DNA from: Acidobacteriota bacterium
GTDB lineage: Bacteria; Acidobacteriota; Thermoanaerobaculia; Gp7-AA8
Direction: 5' to 3'
Length of the DNA stretch: 64,000 nt
Assembly: GCA_019244185.1 (NCBI GenBank)
Contig: JAFATB010000025.1
Location: 160,001 to 224,000, forward strand
Under the pieces are notes generated by a model. It ran no database searches. It had not been told where the DNA came from and saw only the letters and a list, made by a program, of their open reading frames with translations. This document shows positions 13,579 to 53,486 of the stretch, piece after piece (position 1 is the stretch's first letter; each line of letters opens with the position of its first letter). A program made the position numbers and the translations under genes.

Positions 13579-15150
13579 TTACTTCGCGTACTCCGTCGCG
13601 CGCATCTCGCGGATCACCGTGACTTTGATCTGTCCCGGGTACTGCAGCTCGGACTCGATCTTCCGCGCCACGTCCTTCGAGAGCCAGATCGACTGCTCGT
13701 CGGTGATCTTCTCCGAGTTCACGATGATGCGAAGCTCGCGCCCTGCCTGAATGGCGAAGCTCTTCGAGACGCCGTCCATCGAGTTCGCGATCGACTCGAG
13801 CCGTTCCAGACGATGCACGTAGTTCTCGAGAATCTCACGCCGCGCGCCGGGGCGTGCCGCGGAGAGCGCGTCGGCGGCGTTGACGAGCACGGCTTCGACC
13901 GTCGTCGGATCGTAGTCGCCGTGATGGCACTCCATCGCGTGGATGATCTCGCGCTTCTCGCCGTACTTGTCGAGCACCTGGCGGCCGAGCTCGAGATGCG
14001 TGCCTTCCATCTCGCGGTCGATCGCCTTGCCGATGTCGTGCAGTAGTCCGCCGCGCTTCGCGATGGTGTCGTTGACGCCGAGCTCCACGGCCATGAGCGC
14101 CGCGAGTTGCGCGACTTCGAGCGAATGCACGAGCACGTTCTGGCCGTACGACGTGCGGTAGCGCAGACGGCCGAGGAGCTTGAGGATCTCCGGATGGATG
14201 TCGGTGATGCCGAGCGAGAACGCCGCGGCCTCGCCCTCCTCGAAGAGCTTCTGGTCGAGCTCCTGCCGGACCTTGTCGACGAGCTCCTCGATGCGCGCAG
14301 GATGAATGCGGCCGTCCTGCATGAGGCGCTCGAGCGAAATGCGCGCGATCTCGCGGCGGATCGGATCGAAGCCGGAGAGGATGACCGCTTCCGGCGTGTC
14401 GTCGACGATGAGGTCGACGCCGGTCGCGAGCTCGAGCGCGCGGATGTTGCGTCCCTCGCGGCCGATGATGCGGCCCTTCATGTCTTCACTCGGTAGATCG
14501 ACGACGGAGACGGTGTTCTCGGCGACGTAATCCGAGGCCATGCGCTGGATGGCCATGCCGAGGATCTTCTTCGCCTTCTGGTTGCCGAGCTCCGTGGCCT
14601 CGCTCTCGATGCGCTTGATGATGTTCGCGGCTTCGAGCTTCGCTTCGTTCTCGATGCCGCGGATCAGCTCGCGCTTGGCCTCGTCGACGGTGAGGCCGGC
14701 CACTTGTTCGAGGCGGTGGCGCTGCGCTTCGACGAGCTCGTCGAGCTCTGTCTCGCGCGCTTCGACGCGCTTTTCGCGGTCGCCGAGGCTGCGGTCGCGC
14801 TTCTCGACTTCCGTGATGCGGCTGTCGATCTGCTGCGTTTTCTTGTCGAGGCTTTCTTCTTTCTGCTGCAGGCGCCGTTCGACCGACTTGATTTCGTCGC
14901 GGCGCTGCTGCGCCTGCTTGTCGAACTCCGAGCGCATCTGGAGGAGTTTTTCCTTCGCCTCCAGATTGGCTTCTTTGACGCGCGCCTCGGCCTGCTTCTT
15001 CGCGTCGTCGACGATGCGGTCCGCGGTGCGGCGCGCTTCTTCGAGCTGCGCCTCCGCGCGCTTGCGGTAGATGGCTGACCAGACGGCAGCCAACACGACG
15101 GCGAGGACGATTCCTACGCCGATCGCGATCAAGACCTGGATGATGTTCAT
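13579..15150 (-). CDS. rny: ribonuclease Y
   Basis: N-terminal TM and coiled coil, KH domain ([13 protein letters not shown]), HD domain (LLHDIGK), [12 protein letters not shown]. Confidence 0.97.
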
Positions 15151-15190
15151 CAAACCTCCGCGTCGGGAGGCTTGCGCTGAAGAGGAAAGA

Positions 15191-15400
15191 TTTCGGAGTA
15201 CCCCGCCTGAGCCGTGTGGAGGATTCTTACCTGAACCTGTACATGACAGGTGGGCGCCCTACTCGTGCCGTTTTGGCTACCTTCTGAGGTCCCACTGCGG
15301 GACGAAGGCGTGCACGCGACCCGAGACGCGAGCTACCCGAGATAAGAAGTACGGTTCAAGTGCTAGATCGTGCATCACGAACTCTGCAGGGCCTCCGAAA
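15191..15400 (-). ncRNA. ssrS: 6S RNA
   Basis: About 210 nt between zapA and rny, the conserved 6S location. Ends are self-complementary (TTTCGGAG...CTCCGAAA). Internal pairings CCCTGC/GCGGGG and TGAACC/GGTTCA fit the 6S rod structure. Confidence 0.85.
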
Positions 15401-15423
15401 CGATTACGACTACGTCAGTTTGC

Positions 15424-15726
15424 TCAGCCTATTACCTCGCTGAGACGATCTGATATTTCCTCTGTTCTCTCGATCCAAATTCCCGCGGCATCCTCCCGCT
15501 GTCTCCGGTATCTCGAGAACTCGTCGGCTATGTTGAGAGCCGCCAGGATGGCGATTTTCATCGGGTCGACCGTGGCAACCTGCGACGCGACCTCACGCAT
15601 CCGGGCATCGACAAACCGCGCAAGCTCCTCTAAATAGTCCGGGTTTCCCTCGCCGCGAACGTTGTACGTCTGACCGAAGATCTCGACGCCAGTCGAGGCG
15701 TTGGTCGAGTCGTATTTCGCGTCCAT
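15424..15726 (-). CDS. zapA: cell division protein ZapA
   Basis: VEIFGQTYNV...LARFVDARM...IAILAALNIADE. Confidence 0.92.
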   Translation of the reverse strand: MDAKYDSTNASTGVEIFGQTYNVRGEGNPDYLEELARFVDARMREVASQVATVDPMKIAILAALNIADEFSRYRRQREDAAGIWIERTEEISDRLSEVIG

Positions 15727-15914
15727 GGAGAAAGTTAACCCGAGACGGCGCGGATTATAGCAGGAGTCGCGCGCCGTTCACTCCGCACCGCTGCCGGACG
15801 CGCCGCGAGGGTCCGCGGCGTCTCGCCCTACGACATGAAAACGGCCGCCGGCGCCGCGCAATCGCGCCTAATGTGACCTCGTCCGCGCATGGTCTCAGGC
15901 ATAATCTCCCCATC

Positions 15915-15943
15915 TTGCTTACGCCCGATTACCGCCGTAACTT
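15915..15943 (+). promoter_or_regulatory. putative sigma70 promoter of the imuA operon with overlapping palindrome
   Basis: TTGCTT-17bp-TAACTT. A TTAC-N4-GTAA palindrome at 15929-15940 overlaps the -10 box. Confidence 0.5.
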
Positions 15944-15952
15944 ATGGGAGTC

Positions 15953-16840
15953 ATGTCCGCCACAGCGCGCTCTTTTCTAAGACAGACTTCCCTCCTCGAC
16001 CTCGAGGCGGAACGCCCGAAACCCACCCTTCCCGCTTCTCCACAAAATGTAGAGAAGTCCCTGCAGAGAGAAGACGTTGCACGCCTTCGCGCGTCGCTCC
16101 AGGGCACCGCCGCGGCGAAGGTGATGAACGCCACCGAGCTCCTCCGCGCGCTCGAGAAAGAACGCCGCGATGAGCTCATCCCGACGACGCTCGATCCGTT
16201 CGACGAGCTCCTCGGCGGCGGACTGCCGCGCGGGAAGATGGTCGAGCTCACCGGACGCCGCGGCGCCGGCCGCTTCTCGATCGTCCTCTCCGCCCTCGCC
16301 GCCGCGACCAGTATGGGCGAAGCAGCCGTGCTCGTCGATCTCGGCGATCACCTCGACCCGCAGCTCGCCGAGGCGAATGGTGTGGATCTGCGCCGCCTGC
16401 TCTGGATCCGCCCGAAGACGCTCAAGCAGGCGGTGATGAGCGTCGAGATGATCGCCGCGACCGGCTTTCAACTCGTCGTGCTCGACACGGGACTGCACCC
16501 GATGCGCGGACGCCGCGTGCCCGACGCCGCATGGGTGCGCCTCGCGCGGACCGCGGAAGCCCACGGCGCGGCGATGCTCGTCTCGACGCCGTACCCGCTC
16601 ACCGGCACCGCCTCGGAAGCCGTGATCGTCGCCGAACGCACCCGCGCGCAATGGCTCGGCCGCGGCGCCGCTCCCCGCGTCCTCGCCGGAATGACGACCG
16701 TGCTGCGCCTCGAGAAGCACCGCCACCGCAAGCCCGGCACCCACGCGACGCTGACGCTGCGCGCCGAAGACGCCGTGCCGCCGACCGCGGCCGTGCGGCA
16801 GATGGATGAGCTGAGCCCGCGCGAGAGGAAGCGTGCGTGA
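15953..16840 (+). CDS. imuA: ImuA / RecA-like mutagenesis cassette protein
   Basis: LLGGGLPRGKMVEL, degenerate Walker A (GRRGAGRFS), GVDLRRLLWIRP, LVVLD. First gene before imuB-dnaE2. Confidence 0.8.
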   Translation: MSATARSFLRQTSLLDLEAERPKPTLPASPQNVEKSLQREDVARLRASLQGTAAAKVMNATELLRALEKERRDELIPTTLDPFDELLGGGLPRGKMVELTGRRGAGRFSIVLSALAAATSMGEAAVLVDLGDHLDPQLAEANGVDLRRLLWIRPKTLKQAVMSVEMIAATGFQLVVLDTGLHPMRGRRVPDAAWVRLARTAEAHGAAMLVSTPYPLTGTASEAVIVAERTRAQWLGRGAAPRVLAGMTTVLRLEKHRHRKPGTHATLTLRAEDAVPPTAAVRQMDELSPRERKRA

Positions 16841-16859
16841 GGGGACTCAGGACGCACGC

Positions 16860-17200
16860 ATGAGTCGCATCGCCTACCTCGACGCGCCGCGCCTTCACGC
16901 GCCGCGCTCCACGCCACGCGTCCGTGCGGCCGCAGCCACGCGCCGCGCGCCGTTCCGCGTCGAACGCGCGCGCTGCTCCCCGCGCGCCAGTGAAGCCGCG
17001 TCGCGCACGAGGATGCGCGGATGAGCCGCATCGCCTGCATCCACACGCTGCGTCTCCACGCGCGGCACTCTGCTCTCGCCGCACACGCGACGCCGCGCGC
17101 GCGGAGGTCCGCAGCGATACGCCGCGAGCTCCGCGTCGAACGCGCGCGCTGCTCCCCGCGCGCCACCGCGGCCGCCTCGCGCACGAGGACGCGCGGATGA
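16860..17200 (+). repeat. two imperfect tandem units, each starting with a copy of the imuB 5' end and forming ATGA-coupled mini-ORFs
   Basis: ATGAG(T/C)CGCATCGCCT at 16860, 17021 and 17197. Both units share CCGCGTCGAACGCGCGCGCTGCTCCCCGCGCGCCA and TCGCGCACGAGGA(T/C)GCGCGGATGA. Confidence 0.85.
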
Positions 17201-18705
17201 GCCGCATCGCCTGCATCCATGTCCCTCTCTTCCCCCTTGCCGCGCGGCTGCGCAGCGAGCCGGATCTGCTCAACGAGGCGCTCGCGATCGTCGAAGGCAA
17301 CGGGGGCGGCGCGCATGTCGTCGCGGCCACGCGGCGCGCGCGGACGAAAGGCATCCGTCCCGGCCTCTCGCTCGCGCAAGCGCGCTCGATCCTGCCGAAG
17401 CTGATCGCGCGCGGACGCGACGTCGAATGCGAGCGCACGGCGCAGGAAGCGCTGCTCGAAGTCGCGGAGACGTTCTCGCCGCGCGTCGAGGACGCCGGCG
17501 ACGGCATGGTCTTCATCGACGTCGCGGGGATGGAGCGCCACTTCGCCGACGAGACGGAGCTCGCGAAAGCAGCCATCCGCGCCGCTGACAGCGTCGGACT
17601 GCCCGCGCGCTGCGGCATCGCCGCGAGCAAGCTCGCCGCGCGCGTCGCGGCCGAGCTGCCGAAATCGCCGACCATCGTCGCGCCCGGCGAGGAAGCGAAG
17701 TTCCTCGCGCCGCTGCCGCTCGTGCGCCTCTCGCCGGAGCTCGACGCCGCGTCGACGTTGCAACGCTGGGGACTCTCGTCGATCGGTGACCTCGCGCGCC
17801 TCCCCGAATCGGAAGTCGCCTCGCGCCTCGGCGAGCTCGGACGCGAGCTGCATTACGCCGCGCGCGGCATCGATCCGCGTCCGCTCATCCCGCGCGCGCT
17901 GCCGCCGGAGTTCCGCGAAGGGATGGAGCTCGAATGGCCGCTCGTCGCGCTCGATCCCTTCCTCTTCATCGCGTCGTCCGCGCTCGACCGCCTCGCGAAG
18001 CGCCTCGAGATGCAAGGCCTCGCCTGCCGCCGTCTCGAGCTGACGATGAACCTCGAGCCGGACGGCTTTCACGCGCGCGGCATCGACCTCCCCGCGCCGA
18101 CACGCGACGTGAAGACGATGCTCACGCTGCTGCGGCTCGATCTCGAGAAGACGCCGCCGGGCGCGCCGGTCGTCGGCTTCTCGCTCGTCGCGCATCCCGA
18201 CCGCCCGCGCCGCGCGCAGCTGTCGCTCTTCGGTCCCGCGGCGCTGTCGCCGGAGAAGCTCGCCACGACGATCGCGAAGCTCGTGGCCATGCTCGGCGAC
18301 GAGCGCGTCGGCGTCCCGATGACCGTCGACGGACATCTCCCCGACCGCTACGCCATCGGCGCGTACGAGCCTCCGCCGCCGCCCGAGCTGCGCCGCAAGC
18401 CGCGCAAGAGCCGCGGCCTTCTCGCCGTGCGCGTCTTCCGCCCGCCGATCCCGATCGAAGTCCTCACCCGCCCCTCCCGCCCCGGCGAGCCGGGCGAAGT
18501 GCAGATCACCGCCCTCCGGGGCGAAGGCGACCTCTCCGGCGACGTCCGCACCTGCGCCGGCCCCTGGCAATGCGAGGAAGGCTGGTGGCGCGACACCCCG
18601 CTCGACCGCGCGTACTGGGACGTCGAGCTGTCGCGAGGCAAGAGCTACCGGGTGTATCGGGATGGAGGGGAGAGCGGGTGGTATGTGGAGGCGGGGTACG
18701 AGTAG
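17197..18705 (+). CDS. imuB: ImuB, inactive Y-family DNA polymerase
   Basis: MSRIACIHVPLFPL, FSPRVE, FLAPLPL, QLSLF beta-clamp motif, GPW..EEGWW..RAYWDV tail. Confidence 0.9.
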   Translation: MSRIACIHVPLFPLAARLRSEPDLLNEALAIVEGNGGGAHVVAATRRARTKGIRPGLSLAQARSILPKLIARGRDVECERTAQEALLEVAETFSPRVEDAGDGMVFIDVAGMERHFADETELAKAAIRAADSVGLPARCGIAASKLAARVAAELPKSPTIVAPGEEAKFLAPLPLVRLSPELDAASTLQRWGLSSIGDLARLPESEVASRLGELGRELHYAARGIDPRPLIPRALPPEFREGMELEWPLVALDPFLFIASSALDRLAKRLEMQGLACRRLELTMNLEPDGFHARGIDLPAPTRDVKTMLTLLRLDLEKTPPGAPVVGFSLVAHPDRPRRAQLSLFGPAALSPEKLATTIAKLVAMLGDERVGVPMTVDGHLPDRYAIGAYEPPPPPELRRKPRKSRGLLAVRVFRPPIPIEVLTRPSRPGEPGEVQITALRGEGDLSGDVRTCAGPWQCEEGWWRDTPLDRAYWDVELSRGKSYRVYRDGGESGWYVEAGYE

Positions 18706-18720
18706 GGGATATGGGGAGTA

Positions 18721-19174
18721 GAGAAAAAGCTGAATGAAGAACGCAGAACGCAGAATGAAGAATTGAGAAATGAAGGATATTCATGAGCGGACGTTCGAGT
18801 TTGCGTGCCGCGTCGTGCGGCTGCATCAGGCGCTGATGAAACGTCGCGGTGCGGATCGGACGATTGCGAACCAATTGCTGCGTGCTGCGACCAGCGTTGG
18901 ATCCAATCTCGAAGAAGCCAAGGCGGGACAGAGTCGCGCGGACTTCCTCGCGAAAGCACGCATCTCGCTCAAAGAAGCACGTGAGTCGCACTATTGGCTG
19001 CGCCTCATCGAAGCAACGGAGTTACTCGCCGCGAAACAGATTCACCCGCTCACGGAAGAAGCCAACGAGATCGTCGCCGTCCTGACCGCAATCATCAAAA
19101 AAGCCAGCACGTCCCCTCGTCCCCTTTCTTAATTCTTCATTCTGCGTTCTGCGTTCTTCATTCGGTTTTCTCTC
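18721..19174 (+). mobile_element. palindromic heptamer-repeat element carrying a four-helix-bundle gene (full copy A)
   Basis: 50-bp inverted arms at 18721-18770 and 19125-19174, 46/50 complementary, built from GAATGAA/GAACGCA units. They enclose one ORF and sit between imuB and dnaE2. Mobility is inferred. Confidence 0.7.
18770..19132 (+). CDS. four helix bundle protein (23S rRNA IVS protein / Avd-like family)
   Basis: ERTFEFA...IANQLLRAATSVGSNLEEA...SRADF..K..ISLKEARESHYWLRLI is the family signature. Lower GC than its neighbours. Confidence 0.9.
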   Translation: MKDIHERTFEFACRVVRLHQALMKRRGADRTIANQLLRAATSVGSNLEEAKAGQSRADFLAKARISLKEARESHYWLRLIEATELLAAKQIHPLTEEANEIVAVLTAIIKKASTSPRPLS

Positions 19175-19175
19175 C

Positions 19176-22100
19176 ATGCTCGTCCCCTTCCGTCCCCGCC
19201 CTCGCCACCCCCTCCGCCCCTACGCCGAGCTCCGCGCCTCCTCTTCCTTCTCCTTTCTCAACGGCGCCTCGCTCCCCGAGGACCTCGTCTACCACGGGCT
19301 CGAACGCGGGCTCGAGGCGATGGCGATCGTCGATGCGAATGGGCTCTACGGTGCGCCGCGGTTTCATACGGCGGCAAAGAAAAACGGGATGCGGGCGATC
19401 ATCGGGGCGGAGCTGACGCTCGATGAAACGAAAACGGGCTTGCGCGTCGCCACGCCGCCGCGCGAGGTGCGGGTCACGGTGCTCGTCGAGAACCGCGCGG
19501 GCTACAAGAACCTCTGCAAGCTGCTGACGGCGGGCGCGCTCGGGCGGCCGAAAGGCGAAGCGCGCTACACGTGGGAGCTCATCGAGCAGTACGCGGGCGG
19601 ACTGCGGTGTCTCACGGGCGGCGATGAAGGTCCGATCGCGGACGTCGCGAACGCGGAAACGGCACTGCACAAGATCAGCGGCATCTTTCCGGGACGTACG
19701 CACGTCGAGCTGCAGCGGCATCAGCGGCGCGACGAAGAGCATCGGAACATCGCCCTCGTCGATCTCGCGCGGCGCCTGCGTCTGCCGCTCCTCGCCACGA
19801 ACGGTGTCCGCTACGCGCGCCGCGAAGACAAGGAGCTGCACGACATCCTCACCTGCATCCGCGAGGGGCGCAACGTCGACACCGCCGGCCGGCTCCTCGG
19901 CGTCAACCGCGAACGCCACATCAAGAGCGCCGCCGAGATGACCGCGCTCTTCGCCGACTTGCCCGAAGCCATCGACGGAGCGTGGGAGCTCGCGAACACG
20001 CTCGACTTCACGCTCTCGGACCTCGGCTATCAGTTTCCCGACTACCCGCTTCCTCCGGGCGAGACGAACGACTCGTTTCTGCGCAAGATCACGTGGAACT
20101 CCGCCAAGGCGCGGTTTCGTCCGCTGACCGGCAAGGCGCAGCTGCAGCTCGAGAAAGAGCTGAACATGATCGAGAAGCTGCAGCTCGCCGGCTACTTCCT
20201 CATCGTCTGGGACATCGTGCAGTTCTGCAACCGCGAGAAGATCCTCGTGCAGGGGCGCGGCTCCGCGGCGAACAGCGCCGTGTGCTACGCGCTCGGCATC
20301 ACCGCGGTCGATCCCGTGAAGATGGACCTGCTCTTCGAGCGCTTCCTCTCCGAAGAGCGCGGCGAGTGGCCGGACATCGATCTCGATCTGCCGTCCGGCA
20401 GCCAGCGCGAGCGCGTCATCCAGCACGTCTACGAGCGCTACGGACAGCACGGCGCGGCGATGACGGCGAACGTCATCACATACCGCGACCGCAGCGCCGC
20501 GCGCGAAGTCGGCAAGTCGCTCGGCTTCTCGCTCGAACAGGCGGACAAACTCTCGAAGTGCGTCAGCACCTGGAACTTCGGCGAGATCCGCGAAAAGATC
20601 GAGAACCTGCCCGAACAGCTCGCGCTGAGCGGCTTCGATCCCGAGGACCTGCGCGTGCAGCACTTCATGCGGTTGTATCTGCAGATCCAGAATCTGCCGC
20701 GGCACATGGGGCAGCATTCGGGCGGAATGGTGCTCGCGAAAGGGCGCCTCGACGAGGTCGTGCCGCTCGAGCCGGCGTCGATGCCGGGTCGCGTCGTCAT
20801 TCAATGGGATAAGGAAGACTGCGCCGATCTCGGCATCATCAAAGTCGATCTCCTCGGCCTGGGGATGCTCGCCGCGATCGAAGAGATGATCCCGACGATC
20901 GCCACGTGCGAGAAGAAGGAAGTCGATCTCGCGCATCTGCCGGAGAACGATCCGCGCGTCTACAAGATGCTCAACGAGGCCGACACCATCGGCATGTTCC
21001 AGGTCGAGAGCCGCGCGCAGATGGCGTCGCTGCCCCGCAATGCTCCGAAGTGTTTCTACGACATCGTCGTGCAGGTCGCCATCATCCGACCCGGTCCGAT
21101 CGTCGGCGGCATGATCAAGCCGTTCTTCGATAGGCGCCAGGGCCGCGCGCTGGTCGAGTATCCGCATCCGTGTCTCGAGCCGATCCTCGCGCGCACGCTC
21201 GGCGTGCCGCTGTTTCAGGAGCAGCTCTTGCGCATCGCCATGGTCGCCGCGGGCTTCACCGGCGGCGAGGCGGAAGAGCTGCGGCGCGCGATGGGCTTCA
21301 AGCGCTCGATGGACCGCATGCGCGACATCGAGACGCGGCTCCGCGACGGCATGACGAAGAACGGAATCGGTGAGGCCGCGCAGGATCAGATCGTGAAGTC
21401 GATCACCTCGTTCGCGCTCTACGGCTTCCCCGAGTCGCACGCGGCGAGCTTCGCGCTCATCGCGTATGCGAGCGCGTACCTCAAGGCGCATCATCCCGCC
21501 GCGTTCTACATGGCGCTGCTCAACGCGTGGCCGATGGGCTTCTATCATCCGGCCACGCTGATCAAAGACGCGCAGCGTCACGGCGTGAAGGTGTTTCCCG
21601 TCGACGTCAACAAATCCGGCTGGAAGTGTTGCTGGGAAAACAACGGCGTGCGCCTCGGCTTCCGCTTCGTCAAAGGACTGCGCGAGTCGAGCGGACGCCG
21701 CGTCGAAGCGGCGCAGCCGTTCACGGGCACGGACGATCTCGCGCGCCGCGCCGCGCTGCGCGACGATCAGCTGACGAAGCTCGCCTACGCCGGCGCGCTC
21801 GCAACGTTCGGCATGACGCGGCGCGCCGCGCTCTGGCAGGCGTCATACGCGGCGAAGGATGCGGGCGAGCTGTTCGAACGCGCGCCGGAAGCGCAGCAGG
21901 ACTCGCCGCTGCCGGAGATGTCGATGGTCGAGGAGACACTGACCGACTACCAGTCGATGGAGCTCACCACCGGCCGGCATCTCCTCGAGCACTTCCGCCC
22001 GCGGCTGCGCAAGGAAGGCGTGCTGACCGCGACGCAGCTGAAACAGGTGCCGAACGGCAGCCGCGTCGTCACCGCCGGCGCGGTCATCGTCCGCCAGCGT

Positions 22101-22331
22101 CCCGGCACCGCGAAAGGCTTCGTCTTCCTCACGCTCGAAGACGAGACCGGCCTCTCGCAGGCCATCGTCAATCCACCGCTCTTCGCCGAACAGCGCACCA
22201 CCATTCTCGCCAACTCCGGCCTCATCGTCGAAGGCATCGTGCAGAACCAGGAAGGACAAGCCTCCGTGCGCGCGGAACGTTTCTGGCCGCTCGACGGCAT
22301 GCACGACGTGCAGAGCTACGACTTTCACTGA
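19176..22331 (+). CDS. dnaE2: error-prone DNA polymerase DnaE2
   Basis: YAEL..SSFSFLNGASLPEDL, QGRGSAANSAVC, PDIDLD, FQVESRAQM, YGFPESHAASF, RQRPGTAKG and C-terminal SYDFH. Confidence 0.96.
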   Translation: MLVPFRPRPRHPLRPYAELRASSSFSFLNGASLPEDLVYHGLERGLEAMAIVDANGLYGAPRFHTAAKKNGMRAIIGAELTLDETKTGLRVATPPREVRVTVLVENRAGYKNLCKLLTAGALGRPKGEARYTWELIEQYAGGLRCLTGGDEGPIADVANAETALHKISGIFPGRTHVELQRHQRRDEEHRNIALVDLARRLRLPLLATNGVRYARREDKELHDILTCIREGRNVDTAGRLLGVNRERHIKSAAEMTALFADLPEAIDGAWELANTLDFTLSDLGYQFPDYPLPPGETNDSFLRKITWNSAKARFRPLTGKAQLQLEKELNMIEKLQLAGYFLIVWDIVQFCNREKILVQGRGSAANSAVCYALGITAVDPVKMDLLFERFLSEERGEWPDIDLDLPSGSQRERVIQHVYERYGQHGAAMTANVITYRDRSAAREVGKSLGFSLEQADKLSKCVSTWNFGEIREKIENLPEQLALSGFDPEDLRVQHFMRLYLQIQNLPRHMGQHSGGMVLAKGRLDEVVPLEPASMPGRVVIQWDKEDCADLGIIKVDLLGLGMLAAIEEMIPTIATCEKKEVDLAHLPENDPRVYKMLNEADTIGMFQVESRAQMASLPRNAPKCFYDIVVQVAIIRPGPIVGGMIKPFFDRRQGRALVEYPHPCLEPILARTLGVPLFQEQLLRIAMVAAGFTGGEAEELRRAMGFKRSMDRMRDIETRLRDGMTKNGIGEAAQDQIVKSITSFALYGFPESHAASFALIAYASAYLKAHHPAAFYMALLNAWPMGFYHPATLIKDAQRHGVKVFPVDVNKSGWKCCWENNGVRLGFRFVKGLRESSGRRVEAAQPFTGTDDLARRAALRDDQLTKLAYAGALATFGMTRRAALWQASYAAKDAGELFERAPEAQQDSPLPEMSMVEETLTDYQSMELTTGRHLLEHFRPRLRKEGVLTATQLKQVPNGSRVVTAGAVIVRQRPGTAKGFVFLTLEDETGLSQAIVNPPLFAEQRTTILANSGLIVEGIVQNQEGQASVRAERFWPLDGMHDVQSYDFH

Positions 22332-46893: not shown

Positions 46894-47022
46894 GAAAAGC
46901 GAATGAAGAATGCAGAACGCAGAATGAAGAATGAAGAATTGTGGTGGGCCGCCGTTCGGCGGCCACGTCTCCCTCTTTCTTCATTCTGCGTTCTGCGTTC
47001 TGCGTTCTTCATTCATCTTTTC
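46894..47022. mobile_element. empty copy B of the heptamer palindromic element (MITE-like)
   Basis: GAAAAGC(GAATGAA GAATGCA GAACGCA GAATGAA GAATGAA)GAA, then a short spacer with its own GGCCGCCG-TT-CGGCGGCC hairpin, then the inverted arm. Confidence 0.7.
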
Positions 47023-51171: not shown

Positions 51172-52098
51172 ATGAACGGATCGCGGGCAGCTCGCCTGCT
51201 TCTCGGCCTCGCAACGAGCGCGCTCGCGTTGCGCTGCAGCGACGAGCGGCAGGCGGTCGCGGCGAATCCGCCGCGCATCGAGCTCCGCGCCACCGTCGCC
51301 AATCCGCAAACCGCCTCCGCCGTCGCGTCGATCGACGGCCGCATCGCGACGCTCGCCGTTGCCGAAGGCGCGCACGTCGAGCAAGGGCAGCTCCTGGCGA
51401 CGCTCGTCAATCCGTCCATCGAACGCGACCTCGCCTACGCGCGCGCGCAGGTCGCCGTCGCCGAACAGCGCCTCCGCGACGCGCGCAAGCCGATCGCCAC
51501 GTCCCTCATCCTCGGCGATGCCGGCGCCCGCGAGCGCGCATCGCAGGAGATCCTCAAGAACCGCGAGGCGCGCCGCGACCGCTACCGCGAGCTCTACGCG
51601 ACGCACGACGTGTCGAAGGAAGAGCTCGAGAACGCGGAGAACGAATACGCCGCCGCGCTCCGCGACTGGCTCGGCGAGCACGAGCGCGCGTCGATGAAGG
51701 TCGTGAGCACCGATACGAGCGTGCTGCAGCTCGAACTGGAGAAGGCGAAGGCGGAAGAGGCGTTCGTCGCCGACCGCAAGACGCTCCTCAACGTGACCGC
51801 GCCCCTCGCCGGCACCGTCACCCGCGTCCCCGTCCACCTCGGCGACAACGTCTTCACCCGCGACGCGATCGCCGACATCGCCAACACCCGCACCGCCGAG
51901 CTCCACGCCCCCATCGCCCCCGAGCTGACGAAGTACGTGCCCCCCGGCACGCTGGTGGAAGTCAAGGTGTTGACCGTCCCCCCTCGCGTGTTTCGCGTGC
52001 CCGTGAAGAGTGCGGCGAATGGAACGCTAGTCGTGGAAGTACCGAACCCCGAAGGGGCGGTGACGGGAGGGATGGGAGCGGTGGTGACGGTCAAATGA
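51172..52098 (+). CDS. HlyD/membrane-fusion periplasmic adaptor
   Basis: Split lipoyl motifs GRIATLAVAEGAHVEQGQLL and APLAGTVT around a coiled coil. Confidence 0.82.
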   Translation: MNGSRAARLLLGLATSALALRCSDERQAVAANPPRIELRATVANPQTASAVASIDGRIATLAVAEGAHVEQGQLLATLVNPSIERDLAYARAQVAVAEQRLRDARKPIATSLILGDAGARERASQEILKNREARRDRYRELYATHDVSKEELENAENEYAAALRDWLGEHERASMKVVSTDTSVLQLELEKAKAEEAFVADRKTLLNVTAPLAGTVTRVPVHLGDNVFTRDAIADIANTRTAELHAPIAPELTKYVPPGTLVEVKVLTVPPRVFRVPVKSAANGTLVVEVPNPEGAVTGGMGAVVTVK

Positions 52099-53486
52099 AA
52101 AAGCTGAATGAAGAATGCAGAACGCAGAATGAAGAATTGAGAAAGGGGAGCCCCAAGGCGCGAAGCGTCGTTCCCTTTTCTTCATTCTTCATTCTGCGTT
52201 CTGCATTCTTCATTCAGCTTTGTCTCCTCCCCCTCTCCGCCACAGCCGCTCCCCTCACCTTCCCCGCCGCGCTCGAACGCGCCATGCATCTGCGCGCGTC
52301 TGCTTCCACCTTCGCCGATCATGCGCAGGCGCTCGAGGGGCTGAACTTTCGCACGCTGCCGACGGTTCGCGCGGAGTCGGGGTTCAGCAGCGCGGAGAAT
52401 CTGAACCTCATCGCGCAGAACGTCACGCGCTTCGATGCGTTCACGGCGCTGATCAACGTCGACTATCCGTTGCTCAACGGCGGTGCGGATCGGCGGCATG
52501 TCGACGAGCTGAAAGCGGACGCGCAGATTCTGCGGCGGCGCGCCCTCGATGAGGCCGAGGACGTGTTTCGCGAGACGCTCGAAGCGTTCTCGGAGCTGTA
52601 CATCGCCGAGAAGCGCATGCAGTTGCTCGGAGACGGCTCGAAGCGCGCGGCGGAGCTGCGCGAGCGCGCCCACACGATGCTCGAGGCGGGACAGATCTCG
52701 AATGTCACCGCCGCGCAGTGGCAGGACGCGGCGCTCGCCGCCGAGTCGCAGATGGTCGACCTTCAGCTGCAGCGGCTCGAAGCGGAGACGCGCGTGAAGC
52801 AGCTCATCGGCGACACGGGTCAGGACGCGCTCGAAGTCTCGATCGATCTCGACGACCAGCCGATGCTGCGCGAGATCAAAGTCGACCAGCTCGTCGAGGC
52901 CGACGCCGCGGTCGCGACCGCGGAGCTCGTCGAGAACCGCAAGCGTCTCGCGCTCGAAGAAGCGATGGCGCTGCGCAAGCCGCAGGTGCTCCTCTCCGCG
53001 TTCGGCGGCGTGGCGTCCGTGCCGTCGACGTACAACACCGACGCGTCGAGCGGCACCTTCGGCATCTACGGCATGCGCGTCACGCTCGCCTTGCCGATGT
53101 TCGATGCCGCGGCCGCGCGCCGCGTCGCCGAGGCGCGGCTCGATCTCGAGGAAGCGCAGCGCGTCCGCAACGTCACCGCGGTCGCGACGCGCAACCGCAT
53201 CGACCTGCTCTGGCTCGCGGTCGCCGCGGCGGACCGTCGCATCGCGCTGCTCTCCGAAGCGGTCAACGTCGCACGCGAACGCGAGCAATCCGTCGCGCGG
53301 CTCGTCACCGCCGGCGTGCGTCCGGAAGCCGATCTCGTCGACGCGTCGAACGCGCTGGCGCGGCGCGAGAGCGATCTCCTCGCCGTGCGCGTCGACCGCT
53401 GGAAGCTGCAGCAGCGCGTGAAGTGGGGCGGCGCGGCGGTGTCGCAGGGCAGCTTCCTTGCGAAGACGCCGCCGGGTTTCCCGTGA
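52095..53486 (+). CDS. TolC-like outer-membrane protein
   Basis: PLTFPAALERA, LPTV, YPLLNGG and LPMFD in repeated TolC halves. ATGA-coupled to the adaptor. Confidence 0.78.
   Translation: MKKLNEECRTQNEELRKGSPKARSVVPFSSFFILRSAFFIQLCLLPLSATAAPLTFPAALERAMHLRASASTFADHAQALEGLNFRTLPTVRAESGFSSAENLNLIAQNVTRFDAFTALINVDYPLLNGGADRRHVDELKADAQILRRRALDEAEDVFRETLEAFSELYIAEKRMQLLGDGSKRAAELRERAHTMLEAGQISNVTAAQWQDAALAAESQMVDLQLQRLEAETRVKQLIGDTGQDALEVSIDLDDQPMLREIKVDQLVEADAAVATAELVENRKRLALEEAMALRKPQVLLSAFGGVASVPSTYNTDASSGTFGIYGMRVTLALPMFDAAAARRVAEARLDLEEAQRVRNVTAVATRNRIDLLWLAVAAADRRIALLSEAVNVAREREQSVARLVTAGVRPEADLVDASNALARRESDLLAVRVDRWKLQQRVKWGGAAVSQGSFLAKTPPGFP
52097..52221. mobile_element. empty copy C of the heptamer palindromic element, inside the tolC-like 5' end
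   Basis: Left arm 52097-52144 is 47/48 identical to 18723-18770. Inverted arm at about 52172-52221, with about 22 nt of loop. Confidence 0.75.

What the first reader, a model, noticed from the sequence alone, without database searches (positions are those of the whole stretch)
18721..19174. Four-helix-bundle gene caged in a 50-bp heptamer stem, with empty sister copies: candidate IVS-like mobile system acting in mRNA
Seen: the ORF 18770-19132 fills the loop of a 50-bp inverted repeat. The A of its ATG is the last base of the left arm and its TAA lies inside the right arm. The arms are GAATGAA/GAACGCA heptamers with 46/50 complementarity. Three of the four mismatches are G-U-compatible on the + (operon sense) strand, which points to selection on an RNA stem. 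The unit interrupts the normally adjacent imuB and dnaE2. The same arms recur without the gene at 46894-47022 and 52097-52221, and the latter left arm is 47/48 identical. Established: this protein family was first seen in 23S rRNA intervening sequences, which are stem-enclosed and excised by RNase III, and it is related to the RNA-binding DGR accessory protein Avd. Inference: a gene-carrying plus empty element family that spreads without any transposase in the window. It may fold out of, or be cleaved from, host mRNA.
Basis: partly seen in the sequence, partly recalled or inferred. Interest (0 to 1): 0.88.

Follow-up and report, generated by a model that had tools for sequence, protein, structure and literature searches.

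The report
Hairpin-caged small gene, many empty copies
A small gene for an Avd-like four-helix protein sits inside a long hairpin built of seven-base repeats, the same hairpin without the gene is scattered 72 more times through this genome, and this caging proves to be the rule for the gene family across bacteria, pointing to a seemingly undescribed selfish or regulatory element.

Summary
A 120-aa PF05635/TIGR02436 ORF (18770-19132) fills the loop of a 50-nt, 46/50 inverted repeat made of GAATGAA/GAACGCA heptamers, between imuB and dnaE2.

It is the only PF05635 gene in this 5.3-Mb genome. It is also the only gene-bearing member of 73 such hairpins, plus 11 half-arms. 133 of the genome's 138 period-7 arrays are of this type.

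The cage is general:
- 85 of 106 PF05635 genes in 41 related genomes lie between inverted tandem ~7-nt arrays.
- 37 of 78 genes from many phyla do too.
- 0 of 1000 random intervals do.

Each clade has its own unit. The 5' arm is G-rich in 116 of 125 cases.

The gene is old at this site. It occurs there in 7 other genomes, with dN/dS 0.07-0.30, while both arms changed unit together. Gene-less copies come and go at gene junctions.

No RAYT, reverse transcriptase or target duplication was found, and no RNA data exist.

Best reading: an IVS-type, REPIN-like hairpin family whose partner is an Avd-like RNA-binding protein. How it copies itself is unknown.

The parts
18721..18770 (+). Left (5') arm: outer GAGAAAAAGCT, then GAATGAA GAACGCA GAACGCA GAATGAA GAATTGA GAAA. 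Its last base is the A of the ATG.
   Evidence: The unit order equals the commonest unit at each of 5 positions in the 73 copies.
18770..19132 (+). ORF of 120 aa: PF05635/TIGR02436 four-helix-bundle protein with the R-x3-S-x3-N-x2-E motif. It is the only one in the genome.
   Evidence: AlphaFold pLDDT 94.8, four helices. Matches 2RLD, 2GSC and Avd 4DWL. dN/dS against orthologs 0.07-0.30.
19125..19174 (+). Right (3') arm, the complement of the left arm. It contains the last codons and the TAA of the ORF. The dnaE2 ATG (19176) follows one base after it.
15944..16840 (+). imuA-like gene (RecA-fold), first gene of the cassette
16924..18705 (+). imuB-like gene (IMS domains). Its stop lies 15 nt before the left arm.
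19176..22331 (+). dnaE2-like gene (PHP, Pol III alpha, finger, HHH, OB domains)
46894..47021 (.). Gene-less hairpin of the same family. Its loop holds a nested GC hairpin (GTGGTGGGCCGCC...GGCGGCC) that is shared with 4 other loci.
   Evidence: The orthologous spot in G021 holds other repeat elements.
52099..52222 (.). Gene-less hairpin of the same family, starting right after the TGA of the upstream gene. The site is empty in G023 and G017, where stop and start overlap, and holds a different heptamer hairpin in G011.

Best explanation
The 454-bp unit is the single protein-coding member of a genome-wide family of heptamer-repeat hairpin elements. It is an IVS-type element outside rRNA, organised like a REPIN-RAYT system but with an Avd-like four-helix-bundle protein in place of a transposase.

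Shown:
- Gene plus cage is one heritable unit.
- The cage of inverted tandem ~7-nt repeats, with a G-rich arm on the 5' side, is the normal state of PF05635 genes across bacteria.
- The gene has been kept at imuB-dnaE2 for a long time under purifying selection, while both arms switched unit together.
- Gene-less hairpins with the same unit order, and with loops shared between loci, are dispersed copies. They are present or absent at orthologous gene junctions in different species.

Inferred:
- The element is transcribed within host operons. The arms fold into a roughly 50-60-bp RNA stem that loops the insert out and keeps the flanking cistrons close.
- That stem is a likely RNase III substrate, as in rRNA IVSs.
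- The protein, probably a pentamer like its solved homologs, binds the repeat stem of its own family in cis and in trans, as Avd binds an RNA stem-loop.

Unknown: how new copies are made. There is no target duplication, no Y1 transposase and no reverse transcriptase in this genome.
For: Family in G000:
- 157 arms make 73 pairs plus 11 orphan arms. Loops are 11-52 nt in 72 pairs and 362 nt in the gene copy.
- 133 of all 138 period-7 arrays in the genome are of this unit type, and the genome holds exactly one PF05635 gene.
- The master's arm equals the commonest unit at all 5 positions.
- The empties share the inner stem ...CGTCGTTCCCCTTTC with the 3' end of the ORF (by eye).
- Loops are shared between unlinked loci at up to 96% identity. 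78 pairs reach 0.8 or more, against a shuffled maximum of 0.72.

Generality of the cage:
- Strict cage in 85 of 106 PF05635 genes (loose criterion 98) in 41 related genomes, against 0 (loose 11) of 1000 random intervals. The period is 7 in 62 of the 85.
- Strict cage in 37 of 78 loci (loose 56) from Acidobacteriota, Planctomycetota, Verrucomicrobiota, Bacteroidota, Proteobacteria, Clostridia, Desulfobacterota, Chloroflexota and others. The period is 7 in 61 of 78.
- By eye, 6 of 8 cyanobacterial or Azospirillum plasmid copies have inverted arrays.
- Polarity: the 5' arm has G>C in 116 of 125 caged genes, and in 94 against 6 of 102 distinct units with 2 tied (binomial p 2e-21).

Age and function of the gene:
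- The same gene lies between imuB and dnaE2 in G011, G010, G017, G023, G020, G027 and G026, with the different units GAATGCA, GAAGGCA, GAACGCA, GAAGTTC, GAACGAT and AGGGATC.
- dN/dS is 0.07-0.30.

Turnover of the gene-less copies:
- Site 52099 is empty in G023 and G017, filled in G000, and filled by a GGTTGTC hairpin in G011.
- At site 46894, G021 has other arrays.

Gene-repeat link:
- GAANGMA arrays are abundant only in G000, G023, G021, G011, G010, G017 and G007 (46-468 hits). The other 34 genomes have 4 or fewer.
- A GAANGMA-caged gene is found in 6 of those 7 genomes and in 0 of the other 34.

Protein:
- Four-helix bundle with TM 0.83-0.91 to 2RLD, about 0.8 to 2GSC, and 0.74/0.81 to Avd 4DWL.
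- The Avd pentamer contacts an 11-bp RNA stem-loop with all five protomers (bioRxiv 10.1101/2023.10.23.563531, passages).

Other:
- The Coxiella IVS has a 28-bp stem, the S23p ORF and tandem GACAGAT heptamers, and is excised by RNase III (PMC4990558, passages).
- RNase III is present in G000.
- Folds have z -7.5 to -16.9.
Against: - No RNA data exist, so transcription, folding and cleavage are all inferred.
- There is no sense-strand bias of stability or of G-U pairs (23 vs 24, 100 vs 102).
- The two arms of one element are only slightly more alike than arms of different elements: 0.503 against 0.461 +/- 0.018, with 34 of 2000 shuffles reaching the observed value.
- Concerted change of both arms could come from template switching in quasi-palindromes (my own knowledge) without any selection on a stem.
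- The gene-repeat link is not strict. GAACGAT arrays are abundant in 8 genomes, but a GAACGAT-caged gene was found in only 3 of them (G027, G001, G012). Some of these assemblies are fragmented.
- Many caged genes, for example those with AAATTGA arms in G005, G008 and G004, have no swarm of empty copies.
- The 7 GAANGMA genomes may form one clade, so they are not independent.
- One Pseudanabaena copy has its arrays in direct, not inverted, orientation, and one Calothrix copy has none.
- The protein has no recognisable catalytic domain.
- 23S genes of 3 relatives carry no IVS.
Confidence: 0.55

Rival explanations
1. Host regulon rather than selfish element. The hairpins are cis-acting RNA elements in operon spacers, acting as stabilisers, processing sites or attenuators. 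The four-helix protein is their trans-acting binder and autoregulates through the same hairpin around its own gene.
For: - All 72 short copies are intergenic, and 48 lie between co-directional genes.
- 16 of those 48 lie in tight stop/start junctions.
- There is one gene and one repeat family in the genome.
- The protein is under purifying selection.
- The unit number per arm is narrowly kept: 6 units in 57 and 54 of 73 arms.
Against: - Copies are present or absent at orthologous sites, and different families occupy the same site.
- Swarm sizes differ greatly between species of one genus, from 0 to 468 hits.
- Half-elements occur.
- Loops are copied between unrelated loci.
All of these look like turnover of a selfish repeat, not a conserved regulon.
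Confidence: 0.2
2. Passenger gene. The hairpins are REP/MITE-like repeats moved by some unrelated host or transient enzyme. The PF05635 gene merely rides in, or is tolerated in, the loop and has no functional tie to the arms.
For: - The protein has no catalytic domain.
- Repeat swarms exist without a cognate caged gene: for GAACGAT, 5 of 8 genomes.
- Caged genes exist without swarms.
Against: - A passenger would not be caged in 85 of 106 and 37 of 78 cases in many phyla, each time with a different unit.
- It would not keep the cage at one orthologous site while the unit changes.
- It would not show a 116-of-125 polarity rule.
- No Y1 transposase is found and there is no target duplication.
Confidence: 0.12
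3. Mutasome accessory. The Avd-like protein works with ImuB/DnaE2, as Avd works with the error-prone DGR reverse transcriptase. The cage is incidental.
For: The gene is kept between imuB and dnaE2, on the same strand, in 8 of 41 genomes from two families of the order.
Against: - Most PF05635 genes in the same genomes lie elsewhere, equally caged.
- In 9 relatives of the genus, 1.3-42 kb of other DNA lies between imuB and dnaE2 without this gene.
- In G032 the two genes are about 27 nt apart (my arithmetic on the coordinates).
Confidence: 0.05

Closest known systems
23S rRNA intervening sequences carrying an S23p/PF05635 ORF (Coxiella burnetii; Leptospira from recall)
   Same: A PF05635 ORF sits in the loop of a long stem formed by terminal inverted repeats. 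Tandem heptamers (GACAGAT x3, copy number varying between strains) lie just before the ATG, and the SD region lies in the stem (PMC4990558, passages).
   Different: Here the host is an mRNA spacer, not helix 25/45 of 23S rRNA. The 23S genes of 3 relatives are uninterrupted. The protein is under purifying selection, not decaying. There are 72 gene-less dispersed copies. RNase III excision is not shown here.
REPIN-RAYT (REPtron) systems
   Same: One vertically inherited single-copy gene is flanked by inverted copies of a repeat. That repeat also forms tens to hundreds of dispersed intergenic hairpins. Each gene clade has its own repeat type, and there is no target duplication (the REPIN features are from my own knowledge, and PMC3116915 was seen only in a search listing).
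   Different: The gene encodes a four-helix bundle, not a Y1/HUH transposase, and no Y1_Tnp is found in the genome. The arms are tandem heptamers of variable number, not a single 20-30-nt palindrome.
Avd, the accessory protein of diversity-generating retroelements
   Same: The fold is the same (TM 0.74/0.81 to 4DWL, plus hits to the DGR RNP entries). The Avd pentamer binds an RNA stem-loop with all five protomers, and the 3' end of avd pairs with downstream RNA.
   Different: There is no reverse transcriptase in the genome and no TR/VR. Sequence similarity is too low for PHROGs or for phage tblastn.
MITEs
   Same: Short, non-coding, hairpin-forming dispersed copies that look like deletion derivatives of one longer coding element.
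   Different: No target-site duplication, no transposase in the long copy, and arms built of tandem repeats.
Cyanobacterial STRR heptamer arrays (from recall only)
   Same: Tandem heptanucleotide arrays in intergenic DNA. Nostoc, Aulosira, Trichormus and Scytonema PF05635 genes are flanked by AGGAGTC-type heptamers.
   Different: No link between STRR and PF05635 was tested here beyond 4 plasmids, which showed a few extra arrays. The STRR unit sequences were not checked against any source.

Membership tests
PF05635 / TIGR02436 four-helix-bundle protein ('23S rRNA IVP', 'S23 ribosomal protein' family) | Profile match above the curated cut-off | tested here: met
   PF05635 73.5 bits against 33.8. 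TIGR02436 89.4 bits against 24.
PF05635 / TIGR02436 four-helix-bundle protein ('23S rRNA IVP', 'S23 ribosomal protein' family) | Conserved motif R-x3-S-x3-N-x2-E (GxxRxxxSxxxNxxE in PMC3936711) | tested here: met
   Q35, R38, S42, N46 and E49 are invariant in alignment A1. The motif is quoted.
PF05635 / TIGR02436 four-helix-bundle protein ('23S rRNA IVP', 'S23 ribosomal protein' family) | Four-helix-bundle fold like 2RLD/2GSC | tested here: met
   pLDDT 94.8 with helices 2-22, 28-51, 56-82 and 88-114. TM 0.83-0.91 to 2RLD.
PF05635 / TIGR02436 four-helix-bundle protein ('23S rRNA IVP', 'S23 ribosomal protein' family) | Homopentameric ring | not tested
   The entry 2RLD has 5 chains, but no oligomer was modelled here.
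rRNA intervening sequence (IVS) | Inserted in a 23S (or 16S) rRNA helix | tested here: not met
   It lies between imuB and dnaE2. 23S is missing from this assembly. Four 23S genes of G027, G003 and G023 are 2960-2974 nt long and uninterrupted.
rRNA intervening sequence (IVS) | Long terminal stem enclosing the insert (and the ORF) | tested here: met
rRNA intervening sequence (IVS) | Excision by RNase III | not testable with these tools
   An RNase III gene is present. No RNA run is available.
REPIN-RAYT system | Single-copy gene flanked by inverted copies of a repeat that is dispersed as hairpins | tested here: met
REPIN-RAYT system | The gene encodes a Y1/HUH transposase (RAYT) | tested here: not met
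   The gene is PF05635. No Y1_Tnp match is found in the genome.
MITE | Target-site duplication and descent from a transposase-coding element | tested here: not met
   The longest shared flank word is 3.21 against 3.19 +/- 0.10 for shuffled partners. The long copy codes no transposase.
Diversity-generating retroelement | Reverse transcriptase with a TR/VR pair next to the Avd-like gene | tested here: not met
   No RVT_1 match is found in the genome.
Intrinsic terminator | Short GC stem followed by a T run | tested here: not met
   The consensus scan of 15500-19700 finds no site at the arms. The two gene-less copies in the window were not scanned.

The most novel reading that the evidence does not exclude
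PF05635 proteins are the cognate, unit-specific partners of a pan-bacterial class of heptamer-repeat hairpin elements, and may be the factor that maintains or spreads them. On this reading, one protein-repeat symbiosis shows up in several forms:
- classical rRNA IVSs;
- the '23S_rRNA_IVP' genes reported inside cas operons;
- REPIN-like swarms of gene-less hairpins;
- perhaps the long-unexplained cyanobacterial heptamer (STRR) arrays.

The system would run on a non-enzymatic-looking, Avd-like pentamer that reads a periodic stem. That would be a new way for a repeat family to persist without a transposase.
Probability: 0.3. Interest if true: 0.9.

Novelty: new variant of a known kind. Interest (0 to 1): 0.8.

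Why it matters
The role of the ORF in rRNA intervening sequences, and how such elements arise and spread, has been open since the early 1990s. PMC4990558 (passages) still lists it as unclear.

This window gives that question a tractable form:
- a clean one-gene, one-repeat-family genome;
- a simple, countable rule (inverted tandem heptamers, G-rich arm on the 5' side) that holds for this gene family in many phyla;
- a natural series of orthologous loci in which the protein is conserved while the repeat unit changes.

It also offers a plain explanation for why this family turns up inside cas operons. The copies there sit as caged inserts between cas10 and cmr3, and between cas6 and cas4.

It predicts a specific nucleic-acid ligand for a widespread protein of unknown function. 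In seven searches of the held library I found no paper stating the rule. Subscription journals and supplements were not seen.

Tried and rejected
- RNA evidence: no RNA holder is listed for this stretch.
- Laying four DNA runs: the 'joints' were simply the other hairpin copies of the genome. A related strain (X4) keeps the gene. No excised form could be told.
- Pentamer-matches-five-units idea: rejected, because the arms hold 6 GAA-units in 57 and 54 of 73 arms.
- Target-site duplication: none.
- G-U or strand bias: none.
- Rfam: no family matches the hairpins; the only match in the window is 6S RNA.
- Terminator scan: nothing at the arms of the gene copy.
- PHROGs and PADLOC: no hit for the protein.
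- A tblastn of a subfamily-A protein against the phage collection found nothing. The planned negative control on DGR Avd genes could therefore not be run.
- IVS in relatives' 23S: none in 4 genes. 23S is absent from this assembly.
- The strict one-to-one link between repeat swarm and caged gene failed for GAACGAT (3 of 8 genomes).
- Cyanobacterial plasmids: only a few extra AGGAGTC-type arrays beyond the genes themselves, so the STRR idea stays a recollection.
- Transposases other than Y1 were not searched for.
- Supplementary files of papers were not opened. Supplements of PMC10053308 and PMC3936711 may list the contexts of PF05635 genes.
- The phylum (Acidobacteriota) is only a lead from the Atlas clusters.
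Full report
WHAT IS THERE.

The described structure is real. Arms 18721-18770 and 19125-19174 are 50 nt long, 46/50 complementary and 354 nt apart. They consist of tandem heptamers (GAATGAA GAACGCA GAACGCA GAATGAA GAATTGA) and enclose ORF 18770-19132.

The ATG begins on the last base of the left arm and the TAA lies inside the right arm. The imuB-like ORF stops 15 nt before the left arm, and the dnaE2-like ORF starts one base after the right arm.

The ORF is a PF05635/TIGR02436 protein. It has the family motif and a confidently predicted four-helix bundle (pLDDT 94.8). It superposes on BT_0352 (2RLD), Xcc0516 (2GSC) and, more weakly, on Avd (4DWL) and the DGR RNP entries.

As RNA the unit folds at -202 kcal/mol, z -7.5, with the arms as one long outer stem.

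THE FAMILY IN THIS GENOME.

The window is G000:C2:160001-224000 of a 5.30-Mb, 26-contig, 67% GC assembly. The genome holds one PF05635 gene.

A search for (GAAYGMA)3 with up to 2 substitutions gave 157 arms: 73 left-right pairs and 11 orphan arms. 72 pairs have loops of 11-52 nt, and the 73rd is the gene copy with a 362-nt loop.

The consensus is AAAAGCT, five GAA-heptamers, GAAAGGGG, a variable GC-rich loop, and the mirror image. Of the 138 period-7 tandem arrays in the whole genome, 133 are of this type.

The master's left arm carries the commonest unit at each of the five positions. Arms have 6 GAA-initiated units in 57 (left) and 54 (right) of 73 elements.

With crude GC3-based gene calls, all short copies are intergenic. 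Only one is spanned by a stop-to-stop frame. Flanking genes are ++ in 28 cases, -- in 20, -+ in 13 and +- in 11. 16 of the 48 co-directional cases sit in tight stop/start junctions.

Loops are shared between unlinked loci at up to 96% identity. 78 pairs reach 0.8 or more, against a shuffled maximum of 0.72. Whole hairpins have therefore been copied. There is no target duplication. Several orphan arms are true half-elements.

WHAT FAILS.

That is true for this copy, but not for the family. Among 47 co-directional copies the sense RNA is the more stable in 23 and the antisense in 24, and G-U pairs number 100 and 102.

The two arms of one element agree unit by unit in 50.3% of positions. Arms paired at random agree in 46.1 +/- 1.8%, and 34 of 2000 shuffles reach the observed value. 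This is weak covariation.

No RNA run holds the stretch. DNA contigs only show the other copies.

THE GENERAL RULE.

PF05635 genes occur in 36 of 41 related genomes. I fetched the flanks of 114 of them.

For each gene I scored the best inverted repeat across it and the tandem period of its arm. Of 106 genes with at least 150 nt on both sides:
- 85 pass a strict test (score 36 or more, period 5-11 with at least 60% self-match);
- 98 pass a looser test;
- among 1000 random 315-nt intervals of G000, 0 pass the strict test and 11 the looser one;
- the period is 7 in 62 of the 85, 8 in 14, 9 in 4, 6 in 3 and 10 in 2.
Without the three loci from unpublished genomes the count is 83 of 103.

Almost every clade has its own unit: GAGGGCT, AGGGATC, CAGATCG, GGTTCCTCG, GGTTGCT, GGATTGA, AAATTGA and others.

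A scan of one genome per species for relatives of subfamily A returned 80 loci from many phyla. Of 78 with adequate flanks, 37 pass the strict test and 56 the loose one. The best arm has period 7 in 61 and period 8 in 11.

By eye, 6 of 8 copies on cyanobacterial and Azospirillum plasmids have inverted heptamer arrays, one (Pseudanabaena) has long arrays in direct orientation, and one (Calothrix) has none.

There is a polarity rule. The arm on the 5' side is the same on both strands of a palindrome, and it has G>C in 116 of 125 strictly caged genes. By distinct unit (102 in all, 2 tied) the count is 94 against 6 (p 2e-21), with pooled composition G 0.39 and C 0.15.

The published Coxiella IVS fits the rule. 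It has a 28-bp terminal stem, the S23p ORF, and three tandem GACAGAT heptamers before the ATG whose number varies between strains (PMC4990558, passages).

AGE OF THE GENE, TURNOVER OF THE ARMS.

An orthologous gene lies between imuB and dnaE2 in G011, G010, G017, G023 and G020 (same genus), and in G027 and G026 (another family of the order). dN/dS between the genus copies is 0.07-0.30, with dS above 1.

At this one site the arms read GAATGAA/GAACGCA, GAATGCA, GAAGGCA, GAACGCA, GAAGTTC, GAACGAT and AGGGATC. Both arms always match each other. The C-terminal tails are Pro/Ser-rich and variable because the ORF reads into the C-rich arm.

In nine other relatives of the genus, 1.3-42 kb of other DNA lies between the two genes. 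In G032 they are about 27 nt apart (my arithmetic).

TURNOVER OF THE EMPTY COPIES.

At window 52099-52222, G023 and G017 have no element and an overlapping stop/start (GTGAAGTGATGC). G000 has the hairpin right after TGA. G011 has a hairpin of another unit (GGTTGTC/GACAACC) at the same junction.

At window 46894-47021, G021 has about 20 GGTTCCTCG repeats plus a GGTTGTC hairpin.

GENE-REPEAT LINK.

GAANGMA arrays number 303 in G000, 468 in G023, 155 in G021, 106 in G011, 87 in G010, 80 in G017 and 46 in G007. The other 34 genomes have 4 or fewer, and the reversed-pattern control is 0 in all but G037 (3 hits).

A PF05635 gene caged by GAANGMA arms is present in six of the seven. G021's imuB-dnaE2 junction falls at contig ends. 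No such gene is present in the 34 others among all genes examined. These seven genomes may be one clade.

The second family tested is less tidy. GAACGAT arrays are abundant in G027, G020, G001, G015, G012, G003, G009 and G002, but a GAACGAT-caged gene was found only in G027, G001 and G012. Caged genes without any swarm are also common.

MECHANISM.

Shown: a heritable gene-plus-cage unit, a conserved protein, dispersed copy-paste derivatives, and site polymorphism.

Absent from the assembly, which is 98.9% complete: a Y1 transposase and a reverse transcriptase. RNase III is present.

Inferred from homologs: the protein binds a structured RNA. The Avd pentamer grips an 11-bp stem-loop with all five protomers, with flipped bases in the crevices (bioRxiv 10.1101/2023.10.23.563531, passages). 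Long IVS stems are cut by RNase III.

The concerted change of both arms may need no selection. Slippage within arrays and template switching in quasi-palindromes would do it (my own knowledge).

I therefore rank the readings as follows:
- an IVS-type, REPIN-like selfish hairpin family with an Avd-like RNA-binding partner: 0.55;
- a host regulon: 0.20;
- a passenger gene: 0.12;
- a mutasome accessory: 0.05.

LITERATURE.

Seven full-text searches found no paper that states the cage rule or describes gene-less swarms tied to PF05635.

The nearest statements are:
- the heptamer note in the Coxiella paper;
- the report of 23S_rRNA_IVP genes in cas loci (PMC3936711, passages);
- its listing among CRISPR-linked domains (PMC10910872, one figure legend);
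- its presence in rRNA insertions of CPR bacteria (bioRxiv 10.1101/2024.02.27.582315, one passage).

PMC10053308 (passages) links PF05635 to Avd.

Noticed in passing
window 15196-15395 (-): 6S/SsrS RNA, 65.1 bits against a gathering score of 46.4. It overlaps the mechanical ORF 15071-15637, which is therefore probably not a gene.
   Followed up: no
L246 (Picosynechococcus plasmid) and L247 (Pseudanabaena plasmid): Caged four-helix-bundle genes sit as inserts between cas10 and cmr3 and between cas6 and cas4. This may explain why the family is reported as 'CRISPR-associated'.
   Followed up: partly
L247, Pseudanabaena galeata plasmid: About 13 AAAGCTA units lie upstream and a long AAAAGCC array lies downstream of the gene, in direct rather than inverted orientation. 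This is an exception to the hairpin rule.
   Followed up: no
L096 (G021:C643), orthologous to window ~46890: About 20 tandem GGTTCCTCG 9-mers are followed by a GGTTGTC/GACAAC hairpin at the spot where G000 has its GAAYGMA hairpin. Arrays can grow like minisatellites, and the same site is used by different families.
   Followed up: partly
G000:C14:270124-270158: A solitary right half-arm lies about 30 nt downstream of what looks like the 3' end of a tRNA gene (...GGTTCGAATCCCTCTCTCTCCGCCA). No tRNA scan was run.
   Followed up: no
G000:C12:146269-146544: Two hairpins 181 nt apart have identical 25-nt left flanks: a local tandem duplication that includes the element.
   Followed up: no
window 19125-19178: The dnaE2 ATG follows the right arm by one base and has no obvious Shine-Dalgarno sequence (TTTTCTCTCCATG). 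Its translation may depend on the folded or processed state of the hairpin.
   Followed up: no
loci L161-L240: Many units of subfamily-A genes from different phyla share an AGTG core (AGTGACA, AGTGGCT, AGTGGTC, AGTGGTT, TAGTGGA). This could mean shared recognition or transfer of whole elements.
   Followed up: no
G000:C2:247712-247735: One GAAGGCA x3 array, the unit typical of G023 and G010, occurs in G000. It is a possible relic of another family state.
   Followed up: no
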